A stretch of DNA of 64,000 nt from Escherichia coli (GCF_965641715.1 NZ_OZ282455.1); one strand, 5' to 3'. Numbered from the stretch's first letter, positions 1 through 30,372 are shown. The notes: a model not told the origin generated them from the sequence alone. Made by a program: numbers and translations.

Positions 1-390
1 CTCATCTCCCTTTTCTATTGCTGTATGCATATACAGTATTCTAATAACTGAATCCACACACAGTCAAATGTCATTATTGTGACTAAAAAACGCTCAATTC
101 TCTGAGCGTGTGGCTGTATGCCTGCTGTGGACTGCTGTGTCCAGCTTATCCACAGCATTTTGCGCACGGTTCTGTGGACAAAATACCTGGTTACCCAGGC
201 CGTGCCGGCACGTTAACCGGGCTGCATCCGATGCAAGTGTGTCGCTGTCGCCGGCCTCCTCACCCGGTCACGTTTCGTCGTTCCTCCTCCACGCGCTGCG
301 GCTTCGGGGCCGCACCTGCATTCGTATGCGGTCGCCCGGTTACAGGTGCGGCACGGCCTGATGGAGGCCGCATGTGAGAGGAGAATTCCC

Positions 391-1317
391 ATGCCAAACT
401 GGTGCTCGAATCGTATGTATTTTTCTGGTGAACCGGCACAGATCGCTGAGATTAAACGACTGGCCAGCGGCGCAGTCACACCGTTTTATCGCCGCGCCAC
501 AAATGAAGGTATTCAGCTGTTTCTGGCCGGAAGTGCCGGACTTCTGCAGACCACTGAAGATGTGCAGTTTGAACCGTGCCCCGGACTGACGGCTGCCGGA
601 CGTGGTGTTGTATCGCCGGAGAATATCGCGTTCACACGCTGGCTGACACACCTGCAGAACGGTGTGCTACTGGATGAACAAAACTGCCTGATGCTGCATG
701 AACTCTGGCTGCAGAGCGGTACTGGACAGCGTCGCTGGGAAGGATTACCGGACGATGTCAGGGATACCATCACCGCACTTTTCACCGCAAAAAGAGGTGA
801 CTGGTGTGGCTTCTGGAGTAACGAGGATGTATCGGTGTGGTGGAACCGTCTTTGTGACAACGTACTGCCGGAAAAAACCATGCCGTTTGACCTGCTGACG
901 GTTCTGCCCACCCGCCTGGATGTTGAAGTGAATGGCTTTAACGGTGGTGTTCTGAACGGTGTTCCTTCTGCATATCACTGGTATACGGAACAGTATGGCG
1001 TGAAGTGGCCTGTGGGGTATGAGGTGAATATCAGCAGTCAGGGAGACAACTTCATTCAGGTTGATTTCGACACGCCGTGGTGTCAGCCGGAAAGCGACGT
1101 TATTGCAGAATTAAGCCGCCGTTTCAGCTGCACGCTGGAGCACTGGTATGCCGAACAGGGCTGTGATTTCTGTGGCTGGCAGTTGTATGAGCGCGGAGAG
1201 CTCGTTGATGTGCTGTGGGGGGAACTGGAATGGTCTTCCCCGACAGATGACGATGAGCTGCCGGAAGTCACCGGACCTGCGTGGATAGTCGACAATGTGG
1301 CGCATTATGGCGGATGA
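391..1317 (+). CDS. hypothetical leading-region protein (308 aa)
   Basis: Track ORF 346..1317; first ATG at 391 preceded by GAGAGGAG; Cys/Trp-rich; no motif I recognise. Confidence 0.55.
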   Translation: MPNWCSNRMYFSGEPAQIAEIKRLASGAVTPFYRRATNEGIQLFLAGSAGLLQTTEDVQFEPCPGLTAAGRGVVSPENIAFTRWLTHLQNGVLLDEQNCLMLHELWLQSGTGQRRWEGLPDDVRDTITALFTAKRGDWCGFWSNEDVSVWWNRLCDNVLPEKTMPFDLLTVLPTRLDVEVNGFNGGVLNGVPSAYHWYTEQYGVKWPVGYEVNISSQGDNFIQVDFDTPWCQPESDVIAELSRRFSCTLEHWYAEQGCDFCGWQLYERGELVDVLWGELEWSSPTDDDELPEVTGPAWIVDNVAHYGG

Positions 1318-1700
1318 AGTATGACGGAGACGGGCGGGAAACCGCCCGTTTCTTTTCCGACAAAGGATGTCGCCGTGCTCCTCTTTTTACTGCGCCGGCT
1401 GACGCGGCGCGGCATAAACGCTGCCTGTGGTCAGTGTCCCGCGTCCGGCGGGCACGGGACGGGCGCTTTTACCGCTCCCGGCTGGCGTCGGTGACAGTGT
1501 ACGCCAGCCCGTCGCCCTTTTCTGATGAACGCCCTTCAAGCCGCTTTCGCGGCATAACCTCGCCGTCAAAAAGACGACGGCTGCGGTATTCCACGGTCGG
1601 CCTGACCCGTTACCGGACGCGGTGAACAGCCCACAGGCAGCGGGGAACGGGCGCCACAGGGGTGCCCTCCCGGTGCCCTCTGTAAGAGAAGGAGTTTTGT

Positions 1701-2384
1701 ATGTCCCGTTTTATCCAGGGTAACTGCGTGCGTGTTATGGCCACGTTTCCGGGCAATGCTGTCGATTTCATCCTTACCGACCCGCCATATCTCGTCGGTT
1801 TTCGTGACCGACAGGGGCGTACCATCGCCGGCGATAAAACCGATGAATGGCTGCAACCGGCCTGTAATGAAATGTACCGCGTACTCAAAAAAGACGCGTT
1901 AATGGTGAGCTTCTATGGCTGGAACCGCGTCGATCGCTTTATGGCCGCCTGGAAAAATGCGGGATTCAGCGTGGTTGGCCACCTGGTCTTCACCAAAAAC
2001 TACACATCGAAGGCCGCATATGTGGGCTATCGCCACGAATGCGCCTACATCCTGGCAAAAGGCCGTCCACGTCTGCCACAAAACCCGCTGCCGGACGTGC
2101 TGGGCTGGAAATATTCAGGCAATCGCCATCACCCGACGGAAAAGCCCGTTACCAGCCTGCAACCGCTGATTGAGAGCTTCACACACCCGAACGCAATTGT
2201 GCTGGACCCGTTTGCAGGCAGCGGCTCAACCTGCGTCGCCGCCCTCCAGTCCGGACGCCGGTATATCGGTATCGAGCTGCTTGAGCAGTATCACCGTGTC
2301 GGGCAGCAACGCCTTGCCGCCGTGCAACGGGCCATGCAGCAGGGGGCCGCGAATGATGACTGGTTTATGCCGGAGGCTGCGTAA
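1701..2384 (+). CDS. orphan DNA amino-methyltransferase (N6-adenine/N4-cytosine class)
   Basis: DPPY catalytic motif near N-terminus and FAGSGST SAM-binding motif near C-terminus; no restriction endonuclease gene adjacent. Confidence 0.85.
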   Translation: MSRFIQGNCVRVMATFPGNAVDFILTDPPYLVGFRDRQGRTIAGDKTDEWLQPACNEMYRVLKKDALMVSFYGWNRVDRFMAAWKNAGFSVVGHLVFTKNYTSKAAYVGYRHECAYILAKGRPRLPQNPLPDVLGWKYSGNRHHPTEKPVTSLQPLIESFTHPNAIVLDPFAGSGSTCVAALQSGRRYIGIELLEQYHRVGQQRLAAVQRAMQQGAANDDWFMPEAA

Positions 2385-2606
2385 ATGAACTATGCCGGAC
2401 ACGAAAAACTTCGCGCCGAAGTGGCGGAGGTGGCCAATGCCATGTGTGACCTGCGTACAACCATGAATGAGATGGAGCGGCGGTACAGCTTTAATGCTGA
2501 CACCCTGCCGGAACGTCTGGTGCGTCAGACGTTGTTTCGCGCAAACCGCCTCCTGATGGAGGCATATACCGAAATTCTTGAACTGGATGCGTGCTTCAAA
2601 GATTAA
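2385..2606 (+). CDS. hypothetical protein (73 aa)
   Basis: Track ORF; start overlaps stop of methyltransferase gene (TAAATG), suggesting translational coupling. Confidence 0.45.
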   Translation: MNYAGHEKLRAEVAEVANAMCDLRTTMNEMERRYSFNADTLPERLVRQTLFRANRLLMEAYTEILELDACFKD

Positions 2607-2618
2607 GGAGGAGACGAA

Positions 2619-3053
2619 ATGTACGGAACATGCGAAACGCTCTGCCGTGAGCTGGCAGCAAAGTATCCGGGAAACACGCCGCTGATGCTGCTTATCTGGT
2701 CCCCGGAAGAGATTCAGGCACTGGCCGACGGTATGGAAATTTCTCTGACCGATCATGAAATCAGGACTGTCCTGGCGCACCTGGAGGACATCCCGGAAGA
2801 CCAGCGGACTGAGTCCGGTATTTCTTCCGCCGCGGCGATGGAGATTATCAGCAACGTGAGCGAAAACCGCCTGGTGACCGTCCCTGCTGAACTGCTGGCG
2901 TCCCTGATTCAGACCGCTGAACAGGCACTGTGGAAACGTGAATGGGCCGCCCGTGATAACGGCCTTGCCGTCCCGGAATGTGTTACCCGCCGTCAGGCAG
3001 TGATTAATCAGGCCCGCACCCTGCTGAAAAACAACACACACGAAAACAACTGA
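2619..3053 (+). CDS. hypothetical protein (144 aa), paralog of 4762..5184
   Basis: Track ORF with AGGAGG-like SD; shares SLTD.E..TV...L.D and VTVPA motifs with ORF 4762..5184. Confidence 0.6.
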
Positions 3054-3103
3054 TGTTATCGCCGCCTGCCCTGCGGGCGGCGATACAGGGAGAACGCTTA
3101 ATC

Positions 3104-3874
3104 ATGAACAAAACGCTGAATGCACTGGTTTGTCGTCACGCCCGTAACCTGCTGCTGGCGCAGGGCTGGCCGGAAGAGACGGATGTTGACCAGCGAAATC
3201 CGAACTATCCGGGCTGGATCAGCATTTACGTGCGGCTGGATGCGCCCCGGCTGGCGACGTTACTTATCAACCGTCACGGCGGCGTACTGCCGCCGCTCCT
3301 GGCCTCCGCCATTCAGAGACTGACCGGAACCGGGGCGGAACTGGTACTGTCCGGCAGTCAGTGGCAATCGCTGCCGGTACTTCCGGCAGACGGAACGCAG
3401 GTGTCTTTCCCGTATGCCGGAGAATGGCTGACCGAAGACGAAATCAGGGCTGTTCTTGATGCGGTGCACGATGCGGTACGAAGCATCTGTTACCAGGTGG
3501 CAGACGATGCGCGGCGTATCCGTGCGGCGCTGACCACCACCGGTCAGACGTTGCTGACCCGCCAGACGCGCCGCTTTCGCCTGGTCGTGAAGGAAAGCGA
3601 TCACCCCTGCTGGCTCGATGAAGATGACGAAAACCTGCCCGTGGTGCTCGATGCCATCGTGAACCGGGGAGCACGTTTTTCGTCGGTGGAAATGTACCTG
3701 GTCAGCGATTGTATTGAGCATATCCTGTCCAGTGGGCTGGCCTGCGATGTGCTGCGTATACCTGATGAATCGCCCCGCCGCTGGTTTGACCGTGGTGTTC
3801 TGCGGGAGGTGGTCCGGGAAGCCCGGACCGAAATCCGCAGCATGGCGGATGCCCTGGCAAAAATCCGGAAATGA
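3104..3874 (+). CDS. hypothetical protein (256 aa)
   Basis: Track ORF 3053..3874; ATG at 3104 follows a stem-loop (3056..3082) and a GGGAGA SD-like sequence. Confidence 0.55.
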
Positions 3875-3882
3875 TGACACTG

Positions 3883-3905
3883 GCGGGGAAAATCCCCGCC
3901 TTTTT
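3883..3905 (+). terminator. Rho-independent terminator
   Basis: GGCGGGG-aaaat-CCCCGCC hairpin followed by TTTTT directly after stop of 3104..3874. Confidence 0.5.
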
Positions 3906-3932
3906 CCTGCCGGTCCCCGGACAGAGCACAAA

Positions 3933-4270
3933 GGAAGTCGCCGCCGGCTCCGCTTTACCCGGCCATGCAGAGCATGGCCTTGTGGTTTTCAGTTATGTGG
4001 CCTCAGCGTCGTGTGCGGGCTGTGCCGTGCCTCCATCTTAGCCGGGCTGGCGTTGATGCAAGGGTACGCTTCGCCGCTGCGGTCACCCGGTCCCTCCTTC
4101 CCGTCTGCCGTGATTTTCCGGTCGTTCACCCGCTCAGATTTCGCGGTCTCACCCTCCAACTCCCGCCAGCCGTGTGCGTCAGGCTGCGGCTTCCCTTGCG
4201 CCCCTGCATCCCCGCCTTATCGCCCGGCTTTTCTGGAGGCACGGCACCGCCCGGTGTCGCGGAATATGTG
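3933..4270. repeat. dispersed leading-region repeat, family A copy 1 (candidate ssDNA promoter / ssi element)
   Basis: About 340 nt nearly identical to 10878..11218; GC-rich, non-coding, ends about 20 nt before klcA start. Confidence 0.7.
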
Positions 4271-4289
4271 AACAACGGAGGAAAACATC

Positions 4290-4715
4290 ATGCAATATGC
4301 GAAACCTGTCACTCTGAACGTTGAAGAGTGCGACCGTTTGTCTTTTCTGCCTTACCTGTTTGGCCAGGATTTTCTGTATGCCGAAGCGTCTGTATACGCG
4401 CTGGCGAAACAAATGATGCCGGAATATGAAGGCGGATTCTGGCACTTCATCCGCCTGCCGGACGGTGGCGGTTACATGATGCCGGACGGTGACCGTTTCC
4501 ACATGGTGAACGGTGCAAACTGGTTTGACCGTACCGTGAGTGCTGATGCCGCAGGCATCATCCTTACCTCCCTTGTGATTAACCGCCAGTTGTGGCTGTA
4601 CCACGACAGCGGGGATGCAGGACTGACCCAGCTTTACCGGATGCGCGATGCGCAGTTGTGGCGTCACATCGAATTTCACCCTGAATGCAACGCGATTTAC
4701 GCAGCACTGGACTGA
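4290..4715 (+). CDS. klcA: KlcA/ArdB-family antirestriction protein
   Basis: 141 aa; RLSFLP, GGFWHF and C-terminal AIYAALD motifs matching my memory of KlcA/ArdB. Confidence 0.8.
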
Positions 4716-4761
4716 TTAACGGACGGGGCGGCAATGCCGCCCCTGTAAAGGAGACGAGAAC

Positions 4762-5184
4762 ATGTACTGTACTGTTAAAGAAATTATCCGTGATGTACTG
4801 GATACAGACGTGCCGGACAGTGAATGCGTTTTTGCCGTGGTGCTGACCCGTGGGGATGTGCGTCACATAGCCCAGGACTGGAGTCTGACAGACGATGAGC
4901 TGGAAACCGTCATGCAGCGGCTGGACGATGCCTTTGAATATGGTGCGGATGTCAGCGTTGTTCACGGCGTTGTTCGTGAACTGATGGAAGAAAAGCGCGC
5001 CAGCCGTCAGGTGACAGTCCCGGCGGTGATGCTGGAAAAAGTGATGGCGCTGGCAGGCAGTGAAATGAAGCGCCTGTATGCCGTCGGGAGTGAGAACGGG
5101 GGCGACGGTGACGCATTCGTCAGGGAGGAACGCGAAGCAATGGACGTTGTGTTACAGGCGCTGGACGGGGAGACGATGTCATGA
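4762..5184 (+). CDS. hypothetical protein (140 aa), paralog of 2619..3053
   Basis: Track ORF with GGAGACGAG SD; shared motifs with 2619..3053. Confidence 0.6.
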   Translation: MYCTVKEIIRDVLDTDVPDSECVFAVVLTRGDVRHIAQDWSLTDDELETVMQRLDDAFEYGADVSVVHGVVRELMEEKRASRQVTVPAVMLEKVMALAGSEMKRLYAVGSENGGDGDAFVREEREAMDVVLQALDGETMS

Positions 5185-5372
5185 ATATCAGCACAGAAAC
5201 CCGCGAAATTCTGCGCAATTACAAAGCCGTGATTAATGCGCGGCGTCGTGAAATGGGGCAGAAACCGCTCACCACTGCGCAGATTGTTGATGAAATCTGC
5301 GATTTTGTGGCGAATCAGCAGGCGGTTTTCCTCGGTGGTCACTATATCCTTCAGGGCAGCAGAAACAGGTGA
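5181..5372 (+). CDS. hypothetical protein (63 aa)
   Basis: Track ORF; start overlaps upstream stop (ATGTCATGA). Confidence 0.4.
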   Translation: MNISTETREILRNYKAVINARRREMGQKPLTTAQIVDEICDFVANQQAVFLGGHYILQGSRNR

Positions 5373-5411
5373 TACAGGGCAGGCGGTAGAGGCCGCCTGT
5401 CAGCCCGCGCG

Positions 5412-6125
5412 AAAACCCCTGGCAGGCTGACGCCTGCCGGAAATGCGGGGTGCAGCGCCTGCGGCGCTGCCGGCCCGGCTTTCCGGTCAGAAGGTAGTGT
5501 ATGGCTGTATGCAGGGAACAGGTGTGATATTCCGTGACACTGTCACTGTTTCTGGCTGTCTTTTATTGCGCCCACTTCGGCTCCCGGCTGCCTGGCGGCA
5601 TCCGGTCGTCAGGCCCGACTCCGACAGGCAGCTGCTGGCGCACCCGCCAGTCTCCGCCGAACCCGCTGGCGCGGTTTCGGGCTGCCGCTACGGTCCGATG
5701 CGTGAAAACCCGGCTTGCAGCGACCGTTCCGGTCGCGCCGCCCCTGTCGCGCCGTGACCTGCGCTCCCTGCACACCTGACGGTGTGTGAGGAAACTGCGC
5801 CTGATGGCGCAGCAGTCTTCCCTCCTGCCGCCACCCCTGCGGCCTGTTTCCCGCTGTGGACTTTCCGGGGGGCAGACGTAACCCCCTCCCGTTCCATCTG
5901 TCCAGGGTGAGATGCACCGGCCACAAAATTTTTAGCCATGAACCCGGCTAAAAATTTTGCGTCCGCCCCCGGACAGCTGTCCCGTGAGGCGGTAAACGGG
6001 CCCCCATCGGAAAGGTCCACTGCGGGGAGAAACCCCTGTGAAGTGGACGGCAGGAGGAGCTTTCGCTCCTCTGAAGGGGCACATGAACGTCCCGTCGCCG
6101 GTATCCGGTTTATCTCACATCTTTC
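5412..6125. repeat. dispersed leading-region repeat, family B copy 1 (candidate ssDNA promoter / Frpo-ssi-like element)
   Basis: About 700 nt highly similar to 11782..12445; 3' part (about 5745..6125) also shared with 14961..15315; contains AT-rich palindrome CAAAATTTTTAGCC-N9-GGCTAAAAATTTTG; ends at ssb SD. Confidence 0.7.
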
Positions 6126-6140
6126 AGTCAGGAGGTTCTT

Positions 6141-6668
6141 ATGAGTGCACGTGGTATCAACAAGGTCATCCTCGTCGGGCGTCTGGGCAATGATCCGGAA
6201 GTCCGTTACATCCCCAACGGGGGCGCAGTGGCAAACCTGCAGGTGGCCACATCAGAAAGCTGGCGTGACAAACAGACGGGGGAGATGCGGGAGCAGACGG
6301 AATGGCACCGCGTGGTGCTGTTCGGCAAGCTCGCGGAAGTGGCAGGTGAATATCTGTGCAAGGGTGCGCAGGTCTACATCGAAGGTCAGCTTCGCACCCG
6401 TAGCTGGGAAGATAACGGTATCACCCGTTACGTCACTGAAATTCTTGTTAAGACCACGGGCACCATGCAGATGCTGGGGAGTGCACCACAGCAGAACGCT
6501 CAGGCGCAACCGAAGCCTCAGCAGAATGGGCAGCCACAGAGTGCTGACGCGACGAAAAAAGGTGGCGCGAAAACGAAAGGCCGTGGACGTAAGGCCGCGC
6601 AGCCCGAGCCTCAGCCGCAACCGCCGGAGGGGGAGGATTACGGGTTTTCAGACGATATCCCGTTCTGA
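6141..6668 (+). CDS. ssb: single-stranded DNA-binding protein (plasmid SSB)
   Basis: 175 aa; OB-fold N-terminus ([16 protein letters not shown]...), Gln/Pro-rich linker, acidic tail DDIPF. Confidence 0.95.
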
Positions 6669-6686
6669 CTGGCCTGACTGTGATAA

Positions 6687-6959
<273 letters not shown>

Positions 6960-7011
6960 GAGAGGTGCCGGACGCGCGAACGTCCGGCAGGACATAAGCA
7001 ATTATAAGGGG

Positions 7012-8976
7012 ATGATTATGCCTGTAACGAAGTGTGAACCAGAAACCACCCGCAAAGCAAGCCGTAAATCTGCAAAAACGCAGGAAACAGTCCTGTCTGC
7101 CCTGCTGGCGCAGACGGAGGAAGTGAGCGTGCCGCTGGCCTCACTGATTAAGTCACCGCTGAATGTGCGCACGGTGCCGTATTCTGCGGAGTCCGTCAGC
7201 GAACTGGCAGGGTCCATTCAGGGCGTCGGACTGCTGCAGAATCTGGTCGTGCATACCCTGCCTGGTGAGCGCTACGGTGTCGCCGCAGGTGGTCGCAGAC
7301 TGGCAGCACTCAATATGCTGGCTGAGCGTGGAATCATTCCGGCTGACTGGCCTGTCCGCGTGAAAATTATTCCGCAGGAACTGGCGACGGCTGCATCGAT
7401 GACCGAGAACGGTCATCGCCGGGATATGCACCCTGCCGAACAGATTGCCGGATTCCGCGCAATGGCGCAGGAAGGCAAAACAGCGGCACAAATCGGTGAT
7501 TTGCTGGGCTATTCACCCCGCCACGTTCAGCGAATGCTGAAACTGGCAGACCTTGCGCCTGTCATCCTTGATGCGCTGGCAGAAGACCGCATCACCACAG
7601 AGCACTGTCAGGCGCTGGCGCTGGAGAACGACACCGCGCGTCAGGTGCAGGTGTTTGAAGCTGCCTGTCAGTCGGGATGGGGCGGAAAACCGGAAGTACA
7701 GACCATTCGTCGTCTGGTGACCGAAAGTGAAGTGGCGGTGGCGGGGAACACTAAATTCCGCTTCGTGGGGGCTGATGCCTTCTCGCCAGATGAACTGCGC
7801 ACTGATTTGTTCAGCGACGATGAGGGTGGCTATGTGGACTGTGTTGCGCTCGATGCCGCCCTGCTGGAAAAACTCCAGGCTGTTGCAGAGTACCTTCGGG
7901 AAGCTGAGGGCTGGGGATGGTGTGCCGGACGCATGGAGGCCGTTGGTGAGTGCCGTGAAGATGCCCAGGCATACCGCAACCTGCCGCAGCCGGAAGCAGT
8001 GCTGACGGAGGCGGAAGAAGAACGCCTGAACGAACTGATGGCACGTTACGACGCACTGGAAAACCAGTGTGAGGAATCTGACCTGCTGGAAGCAGAAATG
8101 AAGCTGATGCGCTGCATGGCGAAGGTCAGAGCGTGGACGCCGGAGATGCGTGCCGGAAGCGGTGTGGTGGTGTCCTGGCGTTATGGCAACGTGTGTGTCC
8201 AGCGTGGTGTGCAGTTGCGCAGCGAGGATGACGTGGCTGACGACGCTGACCGCACGGAACAGATGCAGGAGAAAGCGTCAGTGGAGGAAATCAGTCTGCC
8301 ACTGCTGACGAAAATGTCTTCCGAACGCACGCTGGCAGTCCAGGCGGCACTCATGCAGCAACCGGACAAATCTCTGGCACTGCTGGCATGGACGCTCTGC
8401 CTGAATGTGTTTGGCAGCGGGGCGTACAGTAGTCCCGCCAGAATTTACCTGGAATGTGGGCATTACTCACTGACCAGCGCTGCGCCGTCAGGGAAGGAAG
8501 GTACCGCATTCATGGCGCTGATGGCAGAGCACTTTCGCCTTGCTGCCCTGCTGCCGGATGAATGGGAACGGGACATGACGACGTTCCTGTCACTCAGCCA
8601 GGAGGTGCTGTTATCCCTGCTCAGTTTCTGCACTGCATGCAGCATCCACGGCGTTCAGACCCGTGAGTGTGGTCACACGTCACGCAGTCCGCTGGACTCG
8701 CTGGAAACCGCCATCGGCTTTCACATGCGCGACTGGTGGCAGCCGACAAAAGCAAACTTCTTCGGACACCTGAAAAAGCCGCAGATTATCGCAGCCCTGA
8801 ATGAGGCAGGACTGTCCGGTGCCGCACGGGACGCGGAGAAGATGAAGAAAGGTGATGCGGCTGAACATGCAGAGCACCATATGAAAGACAACCGCTGGGT
8901 TCCAGGCTGGATGTGTGCACCACATCCACAGACAGATGCCACTGAACGCACCGATAACCTGGCTGATGCCGCCTGA
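7012..8976 (+). CDS. ParB-like nuclease-domain protein (large leading-region ParB/Srx homolog)
   Basis: Track ORF 6928..8976; ATG at 7012 after AAGGGG; N-terminal ParB box (VAAGGRRLAAL) followed by HTH-like segment. Confidence 0.8.
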   Translation: MIMPVTKCEPETTRKASRKSAKTQETVLSALLAQTEEVSVPLASLIKSPLNVRTVPYSAESVSELAGSIQGVGLLQNLVVHTLPGERYGVAAGGRRLAALNMLAERGIIPADWPVRVKIIPQELATAASMTENGHRRDMHPAEQIAGFRAMAQEGKTAAQIGDLLGYSPRHVQRMLKLADLAPVILDALAEDRITTEHCQALALENDTARQVQVFEAACQSGWGGKPEVQTIRRLVTESEVAVAGNTKFRFVGADAFSPDELRTDLFSDDEGGYVDCVALDAALLEKLQAVAEYLREAEGWGWCAGRMEAVGECREDAQAYRNLPQPEAVLTEAEEERLNELMARYDALENQCEESDLLEAEMKLMRCMAKVRAWTPEMRAGSGVVVSWRYGNVCVQRGVQLRSEDDVADDADRTEQMQEKASVEEISLPLLTKMSSERTLAVQAALMQQPDKSLALLAWTLCLNVFGSGAYSSPARIYLECGHYSLTSAAPSGKEGTAFMALMAEHFRLAALLPDEWERDMTTFLSLSQEVLLSLLSFCTACSIHGVQTRECGHTSRSPLDSLETAIGFHMRDWWQPTKANFFGHLKKPQIIAALNEAGLSGAARDAEKMKKGDAAEHAEHHMKDNRWVPGWMCAPHPQTDATERTDNLADAA

Positions 8977-9030
8977 TGAACAACCACACCGCCCCGCCGG
9001 AGACGGGGCGGCAGCAAGGGAGATACCGTG

Positions 9031-9465
9031 ATGAAAACTGAACTGACCCTGAATGCCCTGCAGTCCATGAACGCACAGGAATATGAAGATATCCGTGCTG
9101 CGGGAAGCGATATGCGCCGTAATCTCACTCACGAGGTGATGCGTGAAGTGGACGCACCGGCTAACTGGATGATGAATGGCGAGTATGGCAGTGAGTTCGG
9201 GGGCTTTTTCCCCGTCCAGGTTCGTTTCACGCCAGCCCACGAACGTTTCCACCTGGCATTATGTTCGCCGGGAGACGTCTCTCAGCTCTGGATGCTGGTT
9301 CTGGTGAATTGTGGTGGACAGCCTTTCGCCGTCGTTCAGGTGCAACATATCTTCACGCCTGTCGCTATCAGTCACACGCTGGCGCTTGCCGCGACACTTG
9401 ATGCGCAGGGGTACAGTGTTAACGACATCATCCATATCCTGATGGCAGAAGGAGGTCAGGCATGA
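9031..9465 (+). CDS. psiB: plasmid SOS inhibition protein PsiB
   Basis: About 144 aa; [27 protein letters not shown]... matches PsiB as I recall it. Confidence 0.95.
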
Positions 9466-10181
9466 GCGCACGTTCACGGGCACTGATCCCCCTCAGCGCA
9501 GAGCAACAGGCCGCCATGCAGGCTGTGGCTGTCACCGAACAACGTCGTCGTCAGGGACGCACACTTTCAGCATGGCCTTATGCCAGCGCTTTCTTTCGCT
9601 GCCTGAATGGCAGTCGCCGGATTTCGCTGACCGATCTCCGCTTTTTTGCTCCTGCGCTGACGAAGGAGGAATTTCATGGCAACCGTCTCCTGTGGCTGGC
9701 TGCCGTGGATAAACTGATTGAAAGTTTTGGTGAAGTCTGTGTTCTTCCCCTGCCATCCGATGCGGGGCATCGTCTGTTCCCGTCCGTTCCTTTTCGTGAA
9801 GGTGAGCGGCGTCGTCAGAAAACCACGCTGACAGAGCAGAAATACAGCCGCCAGCGGGAACGTGAGGCAGAACGACGGGAACTGGAATACCAGACATGTT
9901 TTGCTCAGGCGCAGATTGACCTTGCGTTTCATACTCCCGCCACGGTCGGAAGCTGGTTGTCCCGCTGGTCTGGTGTTGTTGAGGAGCATGATCTGGAAAC
10001 GATTTTCTGGGGGTGGTGCGGGCGTTTTCCATCACTGTCATCATTTGACCGGTTTTTCTGGCAGGAGGAACCACTCTGGCGGCTGATTTTTGAAGCCGGT
10101 GAGGCCGGTCGTGGTGCACCGGTACAGGTACGTGCACTTGAGCAGTGGATGATCCCGAACAAGCTGGAGAACGCAATATGA
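9462..10181 (+). CDS. psiA: plasmid SOS inhibition protein PsiA
   Basis: 239 aa, start overlaps psiB stop; matches PsiA as I recall it. Confidence 0.9.
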
Positions 10182-10774
10182 TGAAATCAGACGAACAATA
10201 TCACGTTCCCGTGTGGATGCGACCTCTGTTGCCGTTGCTCTGCAATACCGGTGGTAATGATCCGGAGGAACTGCTGAATGATACAGAAACCACCGCCAGT
10301 GCGAATATTGTCCGTTATGTACTGATAGTTGCAGTGCGGTCGCAGATTGATCTGCTGCAGCTACTGTACAGGAAAGGACTGTTGCGCACAGAGATACCAG
10401 GTGGCTTTTCACCGGAAGAAGCGCAGGAACTCCTGGATAATCTGGTGCGCAGCCATATCAGCAAGGCGCTGTCGGGTGAGCGAATGGCAGCCCGTGACAG
10501 AAATGCCGATCTGACCTGGATTCGCCAGCAACTGGTCGATGCCGCCTGGTTTGTCCGTGCCACACTGGAAGCGCATGGGATGGGCGTCGGAAATGAGAGT
10601 CCCTCTGCTCCGCCGGAGACAATGCCGGACATACAGACACGGGAACTGGTTATGTTGATCAAGCGACTGGCATCATCGCTGAAAGCGGTGAAACCCGACA
10701 GTAGCGTGGTGCGTGAAGCGCAGGACTGGCTGTGCGACAGAAAACTTGTGGATATCACAGATATTCTCCGGTGA
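10178..10774 (+). CDS. hypothetical protein (198 aa)
   Basis: Track ORF 10145..10774; ATG at 10178 overlaps psiA stop. Confidence 0.55.
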   Translation: MMKSDEQYHVPVWMRPLLPLLCNTGGNDPEELLNDTETTASANIVRYVLIVAVRSQIDLLQLLYRKGLLRTEIPGGFSPEEAQELLDNLVRSHISKALSGERMAARDRNADLTWIRQQLVDAAWFVRATLEAHGMGVGNESPSAPPETMPDIQTRELVMLIKRLASSLKAVKPDSSVVREAQDWLCDRKLVDITDILR

Positions 10775-10877
10775 ACCAGACATGTATATTTTACGCAGGG
10801 ACACGCCGATCATGATCGTTTCATATCAGGGGTGGTCTGGAGGTCATGCGGCGTGTCCTCTGCACTCGCCGGAATAA

Positions 10878-11218
10878 GGAAGTCGCCGGCGGCTCCGCTT
10901 TTACCCGGCCATGCGGGGCATGGCCTTGTGGGTTTTCAGCTCTGTGGCCTCAGCGTCGTGTGCGGGCTGTGCCGTGCCTCCATCTTAGCCGGGCTGGCAG
11001 GGATGCAAGGGTACGCTTCGCCGCTGCGGTCACCCGGTCCCTCCTTCCCGTCTGCCGTGATTTTCCGGTCGTTCACCCGCTCAGATTTCGCGGTCTCACC
11101 CTCCAACTCCCGCCAGCCGTGTGCGTCAGGCTGCGGCTTCCCTTGCGCCCTGTGCATCCCCGCCTTATCGCCCGGCTTTTATGGAGGCACGGCACCGCCC
11201 GGTGCCGCAGAACATGTG
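10878..11218. repeat. dispersed leading-region repeat, family A copy 2 (candidate ssDNA promoter / ssi element)
   Basis: Near-identical to 3933..4270; ends about 18 nt before ardA start. Confidence 0.7.
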
Positions 11219-11236
11219 ACTATGGAGGATTCGGGA

Positions 11237-11737
11237 ATGTCTGTTGTTGCACCTGCTGTATACGTTGGAACCTGGCACAAATACAACTGTGGAAGTATCG
11301 CCGGACGCTGGTTTGACCTGACCACGTTTGATGATGAGCGCGACTTTTTCGCCGCCTGCCGTGCTCTTCACCAGGATGAAGCCGATCCTGAACTGATGTT
11401 TCAGGATTATGAGGGATTCCCGGGGAATATGGCCTCTGAATGCCATATCAACTGGGCCTGGGTTGAAGGCTTCCGCCGGGCACGGGATGAAGGCTGCGAA
11501 GAGGCTTATCGTCTCTGGGTGGATGATACCGGTGAGACGGATTTTGACACCTTCCGCGATGCCTGGTGGGGCGAGGCTGACAGTGAGTAGGCTTTTGCGG
11601 TTGAGTTCGTCAGTGATACCGGCCTGCTGGCTGACGTGCCGGAGACGGTGGCGCTCTATTTTGACTATGAGGCGTATGCGCGGGATTTATTCCTGGACTC
11701 CTTCACCTTTATTGACGGTCATGTGTTCCGTCGGTGA
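11237..11737 (+). pseudogene. ardA: ArdA antirestriction gene interrupted by in-frame TAG at codon 118
   Basis: [20 protein letters not shown]... matches ArdA; reading frame stops at TAG 11588..11590 (…GEADSE*) and resumes in frame with the ArdA C-terminus (AFAVEFVSDTGLLADVPETVALYFDYEAYARD…RR*) to TGA 11735..11737. Confidence 0.85.
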
Positions 11738-11781
11738 TTTACTCCCCCGCTCCGGCGGGGGTATGGCCTGCCAGGCCGCCG

Positions 11782-12445
11782 GAAAACCCTGGCAGGCTTA
11801 CGCCTGCCTGAAATGCAGGAGGGCCGCGCCTGCGGCGCTGCCCTTCCTGCCCGTCATGGTGTGAGGCATTTTTCTGTTATGTCGTTTCTGTTGTTCTGAT
11901 TTCCGGAGGCGGGGACACCTTCGGCTCCCGGCTGCCTGGCGGCATCCGGTCGTCAGGCCCGACTCCGACAGGCAGCTGCTGGCGCACCCGCCAGTCTCCG
12001 CCGAACCCGCTGGCGCGGTTTCGGGCTGCCGCTACGGTCCGATGTCTGAAAAACCAGGCTTGCAGCGACCGTTCCGGTCGCGCCGCCCCTGTCGCGCCGG
12101 AAACGGCGCTCCCTGCACACCTGACGGTGTGTAAGGCCACTGCGCCTGATGGCGCAGTCAACCCTTCCGCCGCCACCCCTGCGGCCTGTTTCCCGCTGTG
12201 GACTTTCCGGGGGCTGGAGTAACCACATCCCGTTTCAGCAGTCTAGGGGAAGATATACCGTCCACAAAATTTTTAGCCATAAACCCGGCAAAAAATTTTG
12301 CGTCCGCCCCCGGACAGCTGCCCCGTGACGTGGTGACGGACGCCCCATCGGAAAGGTCCACTGCGGGGAGAAACCCCGAAGAAGTGGACGGCAGAAGGGG
12401 CTTTCGCCCCTCCGGGGAGCAACCGGTCGGCCCGGCGACCTGATT
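11782..12445. repeat. dispersed leading-region repeat, family B copy 2
   Basis: Similar to 5412..6125 over about 660 nt; ends at SD of ORF 12466. Confidence 0.7.
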
Positions 12446-12465
12446 CAGCAGAAGGAGACGTTTTC

Positions 12466-12900
12466 ATGACAGTCAGCAGCACGATTTCCGTTTTTTGCCG
12501 CGACGGGGTGTTCCGTACCGTTTACTGCCACCTGCACGGGGAGCCGACCTGGAACGGTCGCATCCTGCATACCCACTATGCCACCGGTCAGCAGGCCGAA
12601 GCCCTGGTTGAACACGGTGATATCCGTTGCCTCGGTCCCCGTTGCGACAAACCCGCCGGGCATACGCTTCAGAACCCGGTGGACGGTGTGACGGCTTATT
12701 ACGGACGTGACAGTGGTTTCCGGATGGACAGTGAGGCGCGTGAGTACCGTTCTTTCAGGGAGGCTATTGCCACTGAAAGCACTGAAGAGGTGCGCTTCCA
12801 TTATGTGTTCATCGACGGCTACTGGAAGGTGATGTACCGCACGCCGGAAGGCTGGAAGATGAAAGCGCTCGCGCTGGCACTGCGTCGCTGTCCGAAATGA
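12466..12900 (+). CDS. hypothetical protein (144 aa)
   Basis: Track ORF with GAAGGAGA SD; immediately downstream of family B repeat; hairpin after stop. Confidence 0.6.
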   Translation: MTVSSTISVFCRDGVFRTVYCHLHGEPTWNGRILHTHYATGQQAEALVEHGDIRCLGPRCDKPAGHTLQNPVDGVTAYYGRDSGFRMDSEAREYRSFREAIATESTEEVRFHYVFIDGYWKVMYRTPEGWKMKALALALRRCPK

Positions 12901-12993
12901 AAAAAAGGCAGGGCGATAAACCCTGCCTCTCTCCGCCGGCGCTTCCCCGCCAGGAAGTCCGGCATCTCAATCACTATCTATGGAGATTATGCC

Positions 12994-13260
12994 ATGAGAC
13001 CATCAATTATCTTCGCAACCGCCGAGTATGTAAAGCGTCTGCGTGAAGAGTGCCTGCGGGAGAATAAACCCCTGCACCGCCATACCCGCTTCAGACGTCA
13101 GGAGCTGGCACAGGATGAGATTAACCCGGACGTCCTGGCGATGAGCGGCCATATCGCCAGACGCTGCAGTGAGCAGAAGCGGGTGCGTATCCCCGCTATG
13201 AAAGTCAGCGAATGGGGCCACCTGCTCCGCGCGCTTGAAATTGAGCGGGTCTGCCACTGA
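12994..13260 (+). CDS. hypothetical protein (88 aa)
   Basis: Track ORF with GGAG SD. Confidence 0.5.
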   Translation: MRPSIIFATAEYVKRLREECLRENKPLHRHTRFRRQELAQDEINPDVLAMSGHIARRCSEQKRVRIPAMKVSEWGHLLRALEIERVCH

Positions 13261-13324
13261 TTAACCCTTGCCGTCTGCCTGTGCAGGCGGCAGGATACGT
13301 TCAGACATCTCACCAGGAGGAACC

Positions 13325-14251
13325 GTGAGTAAGAAGAAAACCACCACGACGCCCACGCCGCATGATGCCGCGTTCCGGTCGTTCCTGGCGAATCCCGACG
13401 TCGCCAGAGATTTTCTGGAACTGCATCTTCCGGCGGAGTACCGGCAGTTGTGCGACCTGTCCACGCTGAAGCTGGAACCCGCCACCTTTGTTGAGCCGGA
13501 CCTGCATCAGTACGCCAGCGATATCCTCTGGAGTGTGAAAACCACCGGGGGTGAAGATGGCTATGTTTATACGCTCATCGAGCACCAGAGCACCGAAAAT
13601 CTGTACATGCCTTTCCGCATGTTACGTTACAGTGTGGCGGCGATGCAGAGACATCTGGAGCAGCACAAAACGTTGCCACTGGTCATTCCGGTGCTGTTCT
13701 ATCACGGTGAGCGCAGCCCGTACCCGTACAGCATGAACTGGCTGGACTGTTTTGAGAATCCGGCGCTTGCGGCTAAAATATACACAAAGCCGTTTCCGCT
13801 GGTTGATATCACTGTCGTTGATGACAATGAAATCATGAACCATCGCCGGATGGCCGCACTGACGCTGCTGATGAAGCATATCCGCCATCGTGACATGATG
13901 GAGCTGCTGGACAAACTCCCGCAGGTCATGGTGGAAATTTCAGACGAGCAGGTGCGTGTTCTGATTCATTACATCGTTAACGCAGGGGACTCTGTATCAC
14001 CGGAATTTATGCGGGCGCTGGCTGAGCGTCTGCCGCAGCATGAGGATAAACTGATGACTATCGCAGAACGTCTTGAGCAAAAAGGTCGCCAGGAAGGCAG
14101 GATGGAAGGACGCATGGAAGGACGCATGGAAGGAGCGCTTGAAAAAGCCCTGGCTATTGCGTGCCAGCTTCAGAAAATGGGGATGACGCCGGAGCAGATT
14201 AAGCAGGCTACCGGACTTTCCGATGACGAACTGAAGAAAATCACTCACTGA
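13325..14251 (+). CDS. Rpn-family recombination-promoting nuclease (YhgA-like, PD-(D/E)xK)
   Basis: Track ORF 13268..14251; GTG at 13325 after CAGGAGG; YhgA-like N-terminal region; C-terminal tandem GRMEGRMEGRMEG repeat (about 14096..14134). Confidence 0.75.
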   Translation: MSKKKTTTTPTPHDAAFRSFLANPDVARDFLELHLPAEYRQLCDLSTLKLEPATFVEPDLHQYASDILWSVKTTGGEDGYVYTLIEHQSTENLYMPFRMLRYSVAAMQRHLEQHKTLPLVIPVLFYHGERSPYPYSMNWLDCFENPALAAKIYTKPFPLVDITVVDDNEIMNHRRMAALTLLMKHIRHRDMMELLDKLPQVMVEISDEQVRVLIHYIVNAGDSVSPEFMRALAERLPQHEDKLMTIAERLEQKGRQEGRMEGRMEGRMEGALEKALAIACQLQKMGMTPEQIKQATGLSDDELKKITH

Positions 14252-14262
14252 GTAAACATCAC

Positions 14263-14288
14263 AGCCCGGCAAAATGCCGGGCTTTTTT
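14263..14288 (+). terminator. Rho-independent terminator
   Basis: AGCCCGGC-aaaat-GCCGGGC followed by TTTTTT after Rpn stop. Confidence 0.6.
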
Positions 14289-14312
14289 GTCAGCAGGAGC
14301 AGAGCAAACAGC

Positions 14313-14471
14313 ATGACGATTGCAGAACGTCTTATTCAAAAAGGCGCACTTGAAGTGGCGCGGGAAATAGCCTGCCGGCTGCGGGATATGGGCTGGACGC
14401 CGGAACGGATTCAGGAGGCAACCGGACTTTCCGGTGAAGAACTGAAAAAGCTGTTTCCTGATGAGCAGTAG
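14313..14471 (+). CDS. small protein homologous to the Rpn C-terminal tail (RpnS/YpaA-like)
   Basis: 52 aa (MTIAERLIQKGALEVAREIACRL…) aligns with the last about 60 aa of the upstream Rpn protein but lacks the GRMEG repeats. Confidence 0.5.
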   Translation: MTIAERLIQKGALEVAREIACRLRDMGWTPERIQEATGLSGEELKKLFPDEQ

Positions 14472-14501
14472 CCTGGCATTCAGCCAGGCTGTGAATCACG
14501 C

Positions 14502-14753
14502 TCACACATCCTCTGCCGTTTCCCCCAGTTCATTTTCCAGTCGCCTGATGATATCTGCCTTACGCATCCCCTGCATGTGAGGCAGCAGGTCACGGACTGA
14601 AAGTGCCTGGGTGGTCCTCCAGACGGTGACGTCCACCTGTTCCGCATTTTCCCAGGCGTGCCATGTTCTCTGCGTCACGCCAAATTCTCTGGCCGCTTTT
14701 TCGCGTGACCAGAGCATGCTTTTTCGCCAGATTCGCAGTTCCCAGCCGGTCAT
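14502..14753 (-). CDS. small HTH DNA-binding protein (XRE/Cro-like candidate regulator)
   Basis: 83 aa; HTH-like segment SREKAAREFGVTQRTWHAWEN; AAGGTG SD; divergent from leading genes. Confidence 0.6.
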   Translation of the reverse strand: MTGWELRIWRKSMLWSREKAAREFGVTQRTWHAWENAEQVDVTVWRTTQALSVRDLLPHMQGMRKADIIRRLENELGETAEDV

Positions 14754-14767
14754 AAAACACCTTTAAA

Positions 14768-14788
14768 AAAGTGAAAAAACTTCACTTT
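14768..14788. promoter_or_regulatory. operator-like palindrome AAAGTGAA-N5-TTCACTTT (site 1)
   Basis: Perfect 8-bp inverted repeat about 15 nt upstream of the HTH gene start. Confidence 0.5.
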
Positions 14789-14834
14789 ATTTTATCATCA
14801 TAATCACCAAATTAACGCGATAAATAAGTGTGAA

Positions 14835-14855
14835 AAAGTGAAGAAATTTCACTTT
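14835..14855. promoter_or_regulatory. operator-like palindrome AAAGTGAA-N5-TTCACTTT (site 2)
   Basis: Second identical palindrome 67 bp from site 1 in an AT-rich divergent promoter region. Confidence 0.5.
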
Positions 14856-14960
14856 TTTTGCTTGTAAATGTCGTGCGGTTTTCTCTGTTTTCACCTGTGC
14901 GGGAGTGGTGTGCCAGTGACCACCACATGCCATTGTTGTGCCGTCGTTTTTCTTCAGTCG

Positions 14961-15315: not shown

Positions 15316-15329
15316 GATGAGGAGACAAT

Positions 15330-16181: not shown

Positions 16182-16266
16182 TTAAACAGAAAAGCCCTGG
16201 TATTTATGCCGGGGCTTTTTTTTCTGTAATCATCATAATCTCAGAACACGATGTGACATTGTCACA

Positions 16267-16602: not shown

Positions 16603-16660
16603 TGGCACTTTCTCTCCGTTTCATGTTGAAGTCTGATTTTATCATCAAAAACTGACTCCT

Positions 16661-16791
16661 GGCAGGGCTGCGCCCTGCCTCTGCCGTCTGCATAAGACTA
16701 TGATGCACAAAAATAACAGGCTATAATGGCCTGAAAAACGGGACAGGATGTGCAATTGTAATACCGTCACACGCGACGCTATTACAATTGC
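16661..16791 (-). other. oriT: oriT (origin of transfer) with predicted nic site on the - strand
   Basis: 12-bp inverted repeat GCAATTGTAATA / TATTACAATTGC (16752..16763, 16780..16791); on the - strand the repeat is followed by ACATCCTG then TCCC, matching the IncP-type nick consensus ATCCTG|Y, which places the nick between + coordinates 16744/16743, 8 nt from the repeat; second palindrome GGCAGGGCTGCGCCCTGCC at 16661..16679; directly upstream of nikA. Confidence 0.7.
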
Positions 16792-16835
16792 CATCTGGTC
16801 AGGGCTTCGCCCCGACACCCCGTAAGGAGCCTGAA

Positions 16836-17168: not shown

Positions 17169-17178
17169 GGATTCTCCG

Positions 17179-29732: not shown

Positions 29733-29759
29733 GCCAGTGGTACTGGCATCTGGACGTGA

Positions 29760-30344: not shown

Positions 30345-30372
30345 TTTTTCAGTCCTGTTCTGACGTCAGCTT

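What the first reader, a model, noticed from the sequence alone, without database searches (positions are those of the whole stretch)
1701..2384. Orphan DNA methyltransferase at the distal end of the leading region
A 227-aa beta-class amino-methyltransferase (DPPY then FxGxG) has no partner endonuclease nearby. In a leading region it could protect incoming plasmid DNA from recipient restriction or modify host DNA; its target sequence is unknown. The next gene (2385..2606) starts at its stop codon, suggesting an operon of unknowns.
Basis: partly seen in the sequence, partly recalled or inferred. Interest (0 to 1): 0.5.

Follow-up and report, generated by a model that had tools for sequence, protein, structure and literature searches.

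The report
Known plasmid single-strand DNA methylase
This gene is an intact copy of a well-studied plasmid enzyme (the M.EcoGIX family) that methylates the incoming single DNA strand during conjugation so the new host's restriction enzymes cannot cut it; it is real but already known.

Summary
The ORF at 1701-2384 (+) is real. It encodes a 227-aa beta-class N6-adenine DNA methyltransferase, with DPPY at residues 27-30 and FAGSG at 171-175. The window matches IncI-gamma/K1 plasmid pRKI3099a at 100% over its first 9 kb. The protein is 91% identical to M.EcoGIX of pESBL and 98% identical to the plasmid F homologue. Gene order around it matches both plasmids.

M.EcoGIX has been characterised experimentally. 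It puts m6A on single-stranded DNA in the loose context SAY. It is silent in donors and is expressed in the recipient from the entering strand. It protects the plasmid from recipient restriction.

Here the oriT nick motif places the minus strand as the transferred strand, which is the template of this operon. The gene lies about 14.4-15.4 kb from the nick. No restriction endonuclease is found in the 64 kb.

The 380 nt upstream (about 1320-1700) is 92-99% identical to pESBL and F in 100-nt windows, more conserved than much of the gene. It folds far better than shuffles (z -6.5). It shows compensatory base-pair changes in Serratia and Pectobacterium plasmids. It corresponds to the published "class 3" single-strand promoter.

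"Target unknown" is outdated at the family level, although this allele's own target has not been measured.

Verdict: already known, low interest.

The parts
1701..2384 (+). Methyltransferase gene, 227 aa: F-type allele of the M.EcoGIX family (beta-class N6-adenine DNA MTase)
   Evidence: ORF. Pfam PF01555 at 2.4e-39. NCBIfam NF010253 at 497 bits, full length. PADLOC PDLC03228 MTase_II at 3e-140, full length. 91% identity to pESBL M.EcoGIX with no gaps and 98% to the plasmid F homologue.
1779..1790 (+). Codons for DPPY (motif IV, catalytic), residues 27-30
   Evidence: Read from the sequence. Invariant in the window, pESBL and F. DPPY to APPA abolishes activity in M.EcoGIX (PMC7736820).
2211..2225 (+). 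Codons for FAGSG (motif I, AdoMet binding), residues 171-175
   Evidence: Read from the sequence. Invariant in the three plasmids.
1380..1690 (-). Structured element on the transferred (minus) strand upstream of the MTase. It is the homologue of the pESBL 'class 3' single-strand promoter. The main long-range stem pairs 1419-1448 with 1613-1642.
   Evidence: 92-99% identical to pESBL and F in 100-nt windows, while adjacent coding DNA drops to 76%. Present at 95% identity or more in nearly all of the 5000 best-scoring plasmid records. ssDNA fold of 1318-1700 gives -109.3 kcal/mol, z -6.46, with 0/100 shuffles as good. It is one of six strong T-strand minima in a sliding-window scan. Inverted repeat of 30 nt, 83% complementary. 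16 of 90 pairs carry compensatory changes against 6.3+-1.8 in shuffles. The transcription start site was mapped only in pESBL (PMC12672017).
1327..1352 (+). Terminator-like GC hairpin followed by TTTCTTTT, just after the DUF1281 gene stop. It would insulate the MTase operon from upstream read-through.
   Evidence: Inverted repeat I9, 11-nt arms, 91% complementary, 4-nt loop; sequence. The terminator scan did not list it, so its function is inferred.
1686..1694 (+). Ribosome-binding site (GAGAAGGAG) of the MTase gene
   Evidence: Sequence. Conserved in pESBL and F.
2385..2606 (+). 73-aa ORF (YubE family). It starts at the base after the MTase stop codon, and GGAGG lies 7 nt upstream inside the MTase gene, which suggests translational coupling.
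   Evidence: The same gene follows the MTase in pESBL, F, Serratia and Pectobacterium plasmids and carries PF27407 YubE in precomputed hits. No hit in the Pfam copy of profile_search.
2619..3053 (+). 144-aa DUF1380 protein, third gene of the operon
   Evidence: Pfam DUF1380 at 1.8e-50. Syntenic in all relatives.
3053..3874 (+). 273-aa ORF of unknown function, last gene of the operon (RefSeq annotates a shorter form starting at 3104)
   Evidence: No Pfam, NCBIfam or PADLOC match. Equivalents of 258-267 aa are present in pESBL, F and Pectobacterium.
3882..3900 (+). Terminator-like hairpin plus T-run, the likely 3' end of the MTase operon. The next single-strand promoter repeat begins at about 3954.
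16741..16795 (-). oriT core: inverted repeat followed by CATCCTG|T (MOBP-type nick motif) on the minus strand. It defines the minus strand as the transferred strand and the MTase as about 14.4-15.4 kb from the nick.
   Evidence: Sequence. Located between mobC and nikA/nikB. The nick position is recalled from the R64/IncP literature and was not tested here.

Best explanation
The gene encodes an orthologue of M.EcoGIX, the plasmid-borne orphan DNA adenine methyltransferase specific for single-stranded DNA. During conjugation the minus strand of this region enters the recipient 5' end first from oriT. About 15 kb in, the 380-nt element upstream of the gene folds on that single strand into a large stem-loop that RNA polymerase uses as a promoter. 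The methylase operon (MTase, YubE, DUF1380, 273-aa ORF) is then transcribed before the complementary strand is made. The enzyme puts m6A on adenines in a loose context (SAY in M.EcoGIX) on the entering single strand, probably together with host DNA polymerase I. The duplex formed next is therefore hemimethylated at many restriction sites and partly escapes the recipient's restriction enzymes. Once the plasmid is double-stranded the hairpin promoter disappears and the gene falls silent. Shown here: gene identity, motifs, orthology, synteny, strand and orientation relative to oriT, absence of a nuclease partner, and conservation, stability and covariation of the upstream structure. Taken from published experiments on the orthologue: single-strand specificity, SAY context, expression in the recipient and protection from restriction. 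Inferred: that this allele behaves the same way.
For: Identity and family. Orthology: 207/227 residues identical to pESBL M.EcoGIX with no gaps and 98% to the F homologue. PMC4288162 states that the F homologue YfeA is 91% identical to M.EcoGIX, which matches. Synteny with pESBL and F along the whole leading region. Same arrangement and no nuclease in Erwinia, Serratia and Pectobacterium plasmids. Strand: the nick motif is on the minus strand at about 16744 and all leading genes are on the + strand. Upstream element. No sigma-70-type duplex promoter was found between 1200 and 4400. Purifying selection: 31 synonymous against 19 non-synonymous codon differences in the segment that diverges from pESBL. 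Published function of the orthologue: a knockout lowers transfer into EcoGIII or EcoRI recipients by up to 1000-fold (PMC4288162). Activity is single-strand-specific, in SAY context, m6A, and lost with DPPY to APPA; inverting oriT abolishes protection (PMC7736820). The gene is induced in transconjugants within 15 min, and a class 3 ssDNA promoter with a 5'RACE-mapped start lies 5' of M.EcoGIX and is conserved in F (PMC12672017).
Against: No experiment exists for this allele. It differs from M.EcoGIX at 20 residues, 19 of them within residues 5-127, so context preference could differ. The upstream element folds equally well on the + strand (-110.3 against -109.3 kcal/mol). Folding alone therefore does not identify the active strand; that rests on oriT orientation and on the pESBL 5'RACE. 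I could not locate convincing -35/-10 hexamers in either arm (and manual inspection), and the supplement showing them is not held. The covariation test used only 5 sequences, 3 of them nearly identical, on a structure predicted from the same sequences. The PolI partnership is itself only partly established in the source paper.
Confidence: 0.85

Rival explanations
1. It is a conventional sequence-specific orphan methylase acting on duplex DNA, like Dam, CcrM or YhdJ. It would methylate plasmid or host DNA continuously for gene regulation or replication control.
For: It shares the beta-class fold and motifs with CcrM and YhdJ (partial hits). The nearest solved structures are CcrM, M.RsrI and similar enzymes.
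Against: Scores against the CcrM and YhdJ models are far below their cut-offs (84.5 against 830 and 77.4 against 292) and cover only the C-terminal 70 residues. The 91%-identical enzyme leaves neither plasmid nor host modified in the donor and does not act on duplex DNA in vitro (PMC7736820). A 99%-identical copy in ST131 gave no assignable motif (PMC4659465). No duplex promoter was found upstream.
Confidence: 0.04
2. It is a leftover of a decayed type II restriction-modification system whose nuclease was lost. It would be kept only by chance or hitch-hiking.
For: PADLOC labels the best-matching model 'MTase_II'. No nuclease is present.
Against: The same nuclease-free arrangement (MTase, YubE, DUF1380, then an anti-restriction gene, then ssb) recurs in more than 5000 plasmid records and in Erwinia, Serratia and Pectobacterium plasmids. 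The ORF is intact, with catalytic motifs invariant and mostly synonymous divergence. Homologue clusters hold thousands of members.
Confidence: 0.02
3. Its main benefit is competition rather than anti-restriction. By methylating single-stranded replication intermediates it would depress PolI-dependent (ColE1/p15A-type) plasmids and filamentous ssDNA phages in the new host.
For: Active M.EcoGIX lowers the copy number of ColE1 and p15A replicons and handicaps M13 growth. Both effects are abolished by catalytic mutations (PMC7736820).
Against: Those effects were seen with constitutive artificial expression. In the native plasmid the gene is expressed only transiently after entry (PMC12672017). The measured native phenotype is protection from restriction. 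It may be a side effect or a secondary role and does not exclude the main explanation.
Confidence: 0.08
4. The conserved upstream 380 nt is a protein-coding gene (annotated 'hypothetical protein', 1314-1625) or an mRNA leader structure. It would then not be a single-strand DNA promoter.
For: RefSeq annotates an ORF there in this plasmid, pESBL and F. The + strand, and hence an RNA leader, folds as well as the minus strand.
Against: A 1-nt indel in F puts the first ~45 codons in another frame although the DNA there is about 97% identical. Only the last 57 residues align. No family matches were sought or found for it. A terminator-like hairpin precedes the element and no duplex promoter lies upstream. 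5'RACE in pESBL places the start at the predicted hairpin promoter.
Confidence: 0.05

Closest known systems
M.EcoGIX of plasmid pESBL-EA11 (E. coli O104:H4; WP_000086153.1)
   Same: 227 aa and 91% identical without gaps. Same motifs. Same position in an IncI-type leading region with the same neighbours on both sides. The upstream structured element is 96-99% identical in 100-nt windows.
   Different: 20 substitutions, 19 of them in residues 5-127. The 5' two-thirds of the gene is of the F-type allele: 76-81% nucleotide identity to pESBL there against 96-97% to F. The host plasmid is IncI-gamma/K1, not IncI1. The activity of this allele has not been measured.
Plasmid F homologue (WP_000085939.1; called YfeA in PMC4288162)
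   Same: 98% identical protein. Same operon order and same upstream element. It is induced in transconjugants, and PMC12672017 reports the class 3 promoter as conserved in F.
   Different: F is an IncF/MOBF plasmid. The 3' third of the window's gene and its yubE are pESBL-like rather than F-like, at 77-78% identity to F in yubE. The F enzyme has not been characterised biochemically in the papers read.
M.BceJIII of Burkholderia cenocepacia plasmid pBCA072
   Same: Reported as a homologous beta-class enzyme with the same single-strand SAY m6A activity and PolI association (PMC7736820).
   Different: Different host and plasmid. The sequence was not compared here.
DpnA of the Streptococcus pneumoniae DpnII system (from my own knowledge; distant DpnA-named homologues appear among solved structures)
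   Same: A beta-class adenine methylase that acts on single-stranded DNA and protects incoming plasmid DNA from restriction while it is still single-stranded. The logic is the same.
   Different: DpnA is host-encoded, competence-induced, GATC-specific and part of an R-M locus. It serves transformation, not conjugation. Only the C-terminal ~65 residues align.
CcrM and YhdJ (beta-class orphan adenine methylases)
   Same: Same Pfam family and motif order; CcrM is the nearest solved structure (6pbd).
   Different: They are chromosomal, larger, sequence-specific and act on duplex DNA. The window protein scores far below their family cut-offs.
Frpo/ssi single-strand promoters of F and ColIb-P9 (class 1)
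   Same: A large hairpin on the transferred strand upstream of a leading-region operon, used for early transcription (PMC11541004, PMC12672017).
   Different: The element before the MTase shares no repeat family with the three class 1 copies or the two class 2 copies in this window. This agrees with its published assignment to a separate class 3.

Membership tests
M.EcoGIX-type plasmid single-strand DNA methyltransferase (NCBIfam NF010253 / PRK13699) | Full-length match to the family model above the curated cut-off | tested here: met
   497.3 bits against a cut-off of 244; residues 1-227 on profile positions 1-226.
M.EcoGIX-type plasmid single-strand DNA methyltransferase (NCBIfam NF010253 / PRK13699) | Beta-class order with catalytic DPPY before AdoMet-binding FxGxG | tested here: met
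   DPPY at 27-30 and FAGSG at 171-175, invariant in the window, pESBL and F.
M.EcoGIX-type plasmid single-strand DNA methyltransferase (NCBIfam NF010253 / PRK13699) | Close sequence identity to the characterised enzyme over the whole length | tested here: met
   207/227 identical with no gaps.
M.EcoGIX-type plasmid single-strand DNA methyltransferase (NCBIfam NF010253 / PRK13699) | Located in the leading region, with the transferred strand as template | tested here: met
   Nick motif on the minus strand at about 16744. The gene is on the + strand 14.4 kb away, co-oriented with ardA, psiB and ssb.
M.EcoGIX-type plasmid single-strand DNA methyltransferase (NCBIfam NF010253 / PRK13699) | No cognate restriction endonuclease (orphan) | tested here: met
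   None annotated in the window or its 12-kb upstream flank. Neighbours have no PADLOC hits. The same holds in relatives.
M.EcoGIX-type plasmid single-strand DNA methyltransferase (NCBIfam NF010253 / PRK13699) | Preceded by the class 3 hairpin (single-strand promoter) | tested here: met
   Sequence homology to the pESBL element at 96-99% in 100-nt windows. Stable fold, z -6.46. T-strand energy minimum of -87.9 kcal/mol per 300 nt. Covariation. Promoter activity itself was not testable.
M.EcoGIX-type plasmid single-strand DNA methyltransferase (NCBIfam NF010253 / PRK13699) | m6A on single-stranded DNA only, in SAY context, incomplete and asymmetric | not testable with these tools
   Known for M.EcoGIX and M.BceJIII only (PMC7736820).
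M.EcoGIX-type plasmid single-strand DNA methyltransferase (NCBIfam NF010253 / PRK13699) | Protects the plasmid from restriction when expressed in the recipient | not testable with these tools
   Shown for pESBL (PMC4288162; PMC7736820 Fig. 6).
Type II restriction-modification system (methylase subunit) | An adjacent gene for a cognate restriction endonuclease | tested here: not met
   Flanking genes are DUF1281 and YubE/DUF1380. There is no nuclease and no PADLOC hit.
CcrM / YhdJ equivalogs | Score above the curated equivalog cut-off over the full length | tested here: not met
   CcrM 84.5 against 830 and YhdJ 77.4 against 292, covering only residues ~139-214.
Class 1 Frpo/ssi single-strand promoter | Sequence similarity to the Frpo/ssi repeats | tested here: not met
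   The window's three class 1-like copies (5410-6071, 11780-12412, 14916-15247) and two class 2-like copies (3954-4271, 10900-11219) form repeat families that do not include 1320-1700.

The most novel reading that the evidence does not exclude
The two allele types (F-type and I1-type) differ almost only in residues 5-127 and are reshuffled between Inc groups by recombination. This could reflect different sequence-context preferences, so that plasmids swap methylase 'heads' to evade different sets of restriction enzymes. Separately, the class 3 single-strand promoter, so far reported only in pESBL and F, appears to be an old, structurally constrained element, with compensatory changes in Serratia and Pectobacterium plasmids.
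Probability: 0.12. Interest if true: 0.35.

Novelty: already known. Interest (0 to 1): 0.12.

Why it matters
The family matters. It is one of the commonest leading-region genes of IncF and IncI resistance plasmids and helps them cross restriction barriers, so it bears on the spread of antibiotic resistance. This copy adds nothing new in kind. The enzyme family, its substrate, its timing of expression, its promoter class and its biological role are all published. What this analysis adds is modest:

- It confirms that an IncI-gamma/K1 plasmid carries a mosaic F-type/I1-type allele.
- The RefSeq 'hypothetical protein' annotated over the promoter is probably spurious.
- The promoter structure is supported by covariation in more distant plasmids.

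Tried and rejected
- I looked for canonical -35/-10 hexamers in either arm of the upstream hairpin. The scan found none at 9 of 12 matches or better between 1200 and 4400. My best manual candidate (TATGCC at 1416-1411 on the minus strand) is not conserved in F, so I do not propose box positions.
- The supplement of PMC12672017 that shows the promoter boxes and start site is not held.
- I tried to use folding energy to decide which strand carries the structure. Both strands fold equally well, so this is uninformative.
- I fetched R64 (AP005147.1) for comparison, but it is not in the collections.
- I considered a type II R-M remnant, a Dam/CcrM-like regulatory methylase and a pseudogene. All were rejected on synteny, family scores, intact motifs and published data for the orthologue.
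- No structure prediction or fold search was run, because sequence-level orthology was decisive.

Full report
**Observation**

The window's first 9 kb match E. coli plasmid pRKI3099a (NZ_MN124285.1) at 100%. That plasmid is typed IncI-gamma/K1, MOBP, MPF_I. An ATG-to-TAA ORF of 227 aa occupies 1701-2384 on the + strand, preceded by AGGAG at 1690-1694.

The protein carries DPPY at residues 27-30 and FAGSG at 171-175. That is the beta-class order, with the catalytic motif IV before the AdoMet-binding motif I. Database matches are:

- Pfam N6_N4_Mtase at 2.4e-39.
- NCBIfam NF010253/PRK13699 end to end at 497 bits, cut-off 244.
- A 227-position PADLOC methylase model at 3e-140.

Hits to CcrM and YhdJ are partial and far below their cut-offs. 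The nearest solved structures (CcrM, M.RsrI, DpnA-named proteins) align only over the C-terminal ~70 residues. The next ORF begins at 2385, the base after the stop codon.

**Orphan status and position**

No restriction endonuclease is annotated in the window or in the 12 kb upstream of it. None of the neighbouring proteins hits a PADLOC model.

Between mobC and nikA the minus strand reads an inverted repeat followed by CATCCTG|TCCCG at about 16750-16741. From my memory of R64 and IncP oriT this is the MOBP nick motif. On that basis the minus strand is the transferred strand and lower coordinates enter the recipient first. The genes ardA, psiA, psiB, a ParB-like gene, ssb, a klcA-like anti-restriction gene and then this operon all lie on the + strand, so the transferred strand is their template. 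The methylase gene lies 14.4 kb from the nick. Beyond it come only a DUF1281 gene and then the oppositely oriented dinI/umuDC block. 'Distal end of the leading region' is therefore correct.

**What it is**

pESBL-EA11 (NC_018659.1) has one DNA methylase gene, in the same place with the same neighbours. That gene is M.EcoGIX (PMC4288162). The window protein is 207/227 identical to it, with no gaps. It is 98% identical to the plasmid F homologue. PMC4288162 reports that the F protein is 91% identical to M.EcoGIX, which agrees.

The gene is a recombinational mosaic:

| Segment | Identity to F | Identity to pESBL |
|---|---|---|
| 1699-2097 (5' two-thirds of the gene) | 87-97% | 76-94% |
| 2098-2597 (3' third plus yubE) | falling from 96% to 77% | 97-100% |

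In the segment that diverges from pESBL there are 31 synonymous and 19 non-synonymous codon differences, so the protein is under purifying selection. Homologue clusters hold thousands of member sequences, and more than 5000 plasmid records carry the region.

In Erwinia amylovora, Serratia and Pectobacterium plasmids, at 78-84% protein identity, the order is again MTase, YubE, DUF1380, an anti-restriction gene and (in Erwinia and Serratia) ssb, with no nuclease.

**How it works (from published work on the orthologue)**

- M.EcoGIX makes m6A in the loose context SAY. It acts on single-stranded but not double-stranded DNA, incompletely and on one strand. DPPY to APPA kills it. It co-purifies with DNA polymerase I (PMC7736820).
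- Neither plasmid nor host is modified in the donor.
- Deleting the gene lowers pESBL transfer into EcoGIII or EcoRI recipients by up to about 1000-fold (PMC4288162).
- Inverting oriT abolishes protection, so the enzyme must be made in the recipient from the entering strand.
- RNA-seq of early transconjugants shows six strongly induced leading-region operons in pESBL, each behind a hairpin promoter with a 5'RACE-mapped start. The one 5' of M.EcoGIX is unlike the others ('class 3') and is conserved in F (PMC12672017).

**The upstream element in this window**

Conservation:
- The 380 nt between the DUF1281 stop (1317) and the MTase start are 92-99% identical to pESBL and F in 100-nt windows, while the adjacent coding DNA falls to 76%.
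- Nearly all of the 5000 best-scoring plasmid records match the element at 95% identity or more.

Folding and scans:
- Folded as single-stranded DNA, the minus strand gives -109.3 kcal/mol against -80.2+-4.5 for shuffles. That is z -6.46, with 0 of 100 shuffles as good. The main stem pairs 1419-1448 with 1613-1642.
- I repeated the paper's sliding-window approach on the minus strand of 1-17300 (300 nt, DNA parameters, threshold -75 kcal/mol). It returns six strong sites: 1326-1700, 3951-4250, 5351-6150, 10901-11250, 11701-12450 and 14926-15325. Two marginal sites also appear.
- The direct-repeat analysis sorts five of the six sites into two families. These are 3954-4271 with 10900-11219, and 5410-6071 with 11780-12412 and 14916-15247. 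The MTase element belongs to neither. This matches the published classes 2, 1 and 3.
- No duplex sigma-70-type promoter is found between 1200 and 4400.

Covariation:
- Aligning the element with its Serratia and Pectobacterium counterparts gives a consensus structure in which 16 of 90 pairs carry compensatory double changes.
- Shuffles give 6.3+-1.8 such pairs (0/500 reach 16) and slid controls give 0-3.
- 95.6% of cells are paired, against 37-46% in slid controls.

Caveats:
- Only five sequences were used, three of them nearly identical, and the structure was predicted from them.
- The + strand folds just as well, so the strand assignment rests on oriT orientation and the pESBL 5'RACE.
- I could not place convincing -35/-10 boxes, and the relevant supplement is not held.

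**The operon**

The operon has four genes:

- The methylase gene (1701-2384).
- A 73-aa YubE-family ORF (2385-2606). GGAGG lies 7 nt upstream of its start, inside the MTase gene.
- A DUF1380 gene (2619-3053; Pfam 1.8e-50).
- A 273-aa ORF with no family match (3053-3874).

A terminator-like hairpin with a T-run follows at 3882-3900, and the next hairpin promoter repeat starts at 3954. A terminator-like hairpin at 1327-1352 follows the DUF1281 gene. The functions of the three downstream genes remain unknown.

**Rivals**

- A Dam/CcrM-like duplex methylase. This is rejected on family scores and on the silence of the orthologue in donors.
- A remnant of an R-M system. This is rejected on the conserved nuclease-free synteny and purifying selection.
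- A role in competition against PolI-dependent plasmids or M13-type phages. This has experimental backing only under constitutive expression and is at most a secondary role.
- The annotated 'hypothetical protein' at 1314-1625. This is probably not a gene. In F a 1-nt indel shifts the first ~45 codons into another frame although the DNA is about 97% identical.

**Verdict**

The target context, substrate, expression timing, promoter class and biological role are already published for the family. Novelty: already known. Interest: low.

Noticed in passing
window 1314-1625 (+): RefSeq annotates a 103-aa 'hypothetical protein' lying entirely inside the conserved hairpin element upstream of the methylase. 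In plasmid F a 1-nt indel puts its first ~45 codons in another frame while the DNA stays about 97% identical (only the last 57 aa align). It is probably a spurious ORF call over a non-coding structured element.
   Followed up: yes
window 3954-4271 and 10900-11219: Two ~320-nt direct repeats, 92-98% identical, sit directly upstream of the klcA-like anti-restriction gene (4290) and of ardA (about 11237). Both are strong T-strand folding minima and match the published 'class 2' single-strand promoters of pESBL.
   Followed up: partly
window 5410-6071, 11780-12412, 14916-15247: Three copies of a longer GC-rich repeat family (65-98% identical) lie upstream of ssb, of a 144-aa ORF and of a DUF4942 gene. 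They are the strongest T-strand folding minima (down to -95 kcal/mol per 300 nt) and correspond to the ssi1-3/Frpo-like 'class 1' promoters.
   Followed up: partly
window 76-375 and 7326-7675 (minus strand): Two further segments just reach the -75 kcal/mol folding threshold. One is upstream of the DUF1281 gene and one is inside the ParB-like gene. It is not known whether the first is a weak seventh single-strand promoter.
   Followed up: no
window 1699-2600 compared with L003 (pESBL) and L004 (F): The methylase operon is a recombinational mosaic. The 5' two-thirds of the methylase is F-like (76-81% identity to pESBL in the most divergent stretches), while the 3' third and yubE are pESBL-like (77-78% identity to F).
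   Followed up: yes
database proteins P0083-P0090, P0101, P0104 (not in the window): 280-aa hybrid proteins join methylase residues 1-180 to about 100 C-terminal residues carrying the PsiB Pfam domain (PF06290). They are seen on up to 72 contigs. This implies a recurrent or clonally spread ~6.7-kb deletion that removes yubE through most of psiB in some E. coli plasmids.
   Followed up: partly
L009/L010 11020-11805 (Pectobacterium plasmid); L008 9406-11394 (Serratia plasmid): These relatives carry additional methylase-like genes further along the same leading region. Pectobacterium has a 261-aa PF02384 N6_Mtase protein. Serratia has a 190-aa protein with a weak MTS hit next to a DUF3560 protein. 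This suggests several orphan methylases per leading region.
   Followed up: no
window about 27844-30432 (minus strand): An IS66-family element (tnpA, tnpB and transposase) is inserted between the hok/small-ORF region and excA. It is absent at this position in pESBL.
   Followed up: no
window 14054-14449: Two adjacent direct repeats (109 nt at 75% identity, spaced 211 nt; 32 nt at 84% identity, spaced 259 nt) begin with ATGAC(T/G)AT(C/T)GCAGAACGTCTT. They look like tandem paralogous small ORFs near the Rpn-family nuclease gene.
   Followed up: no
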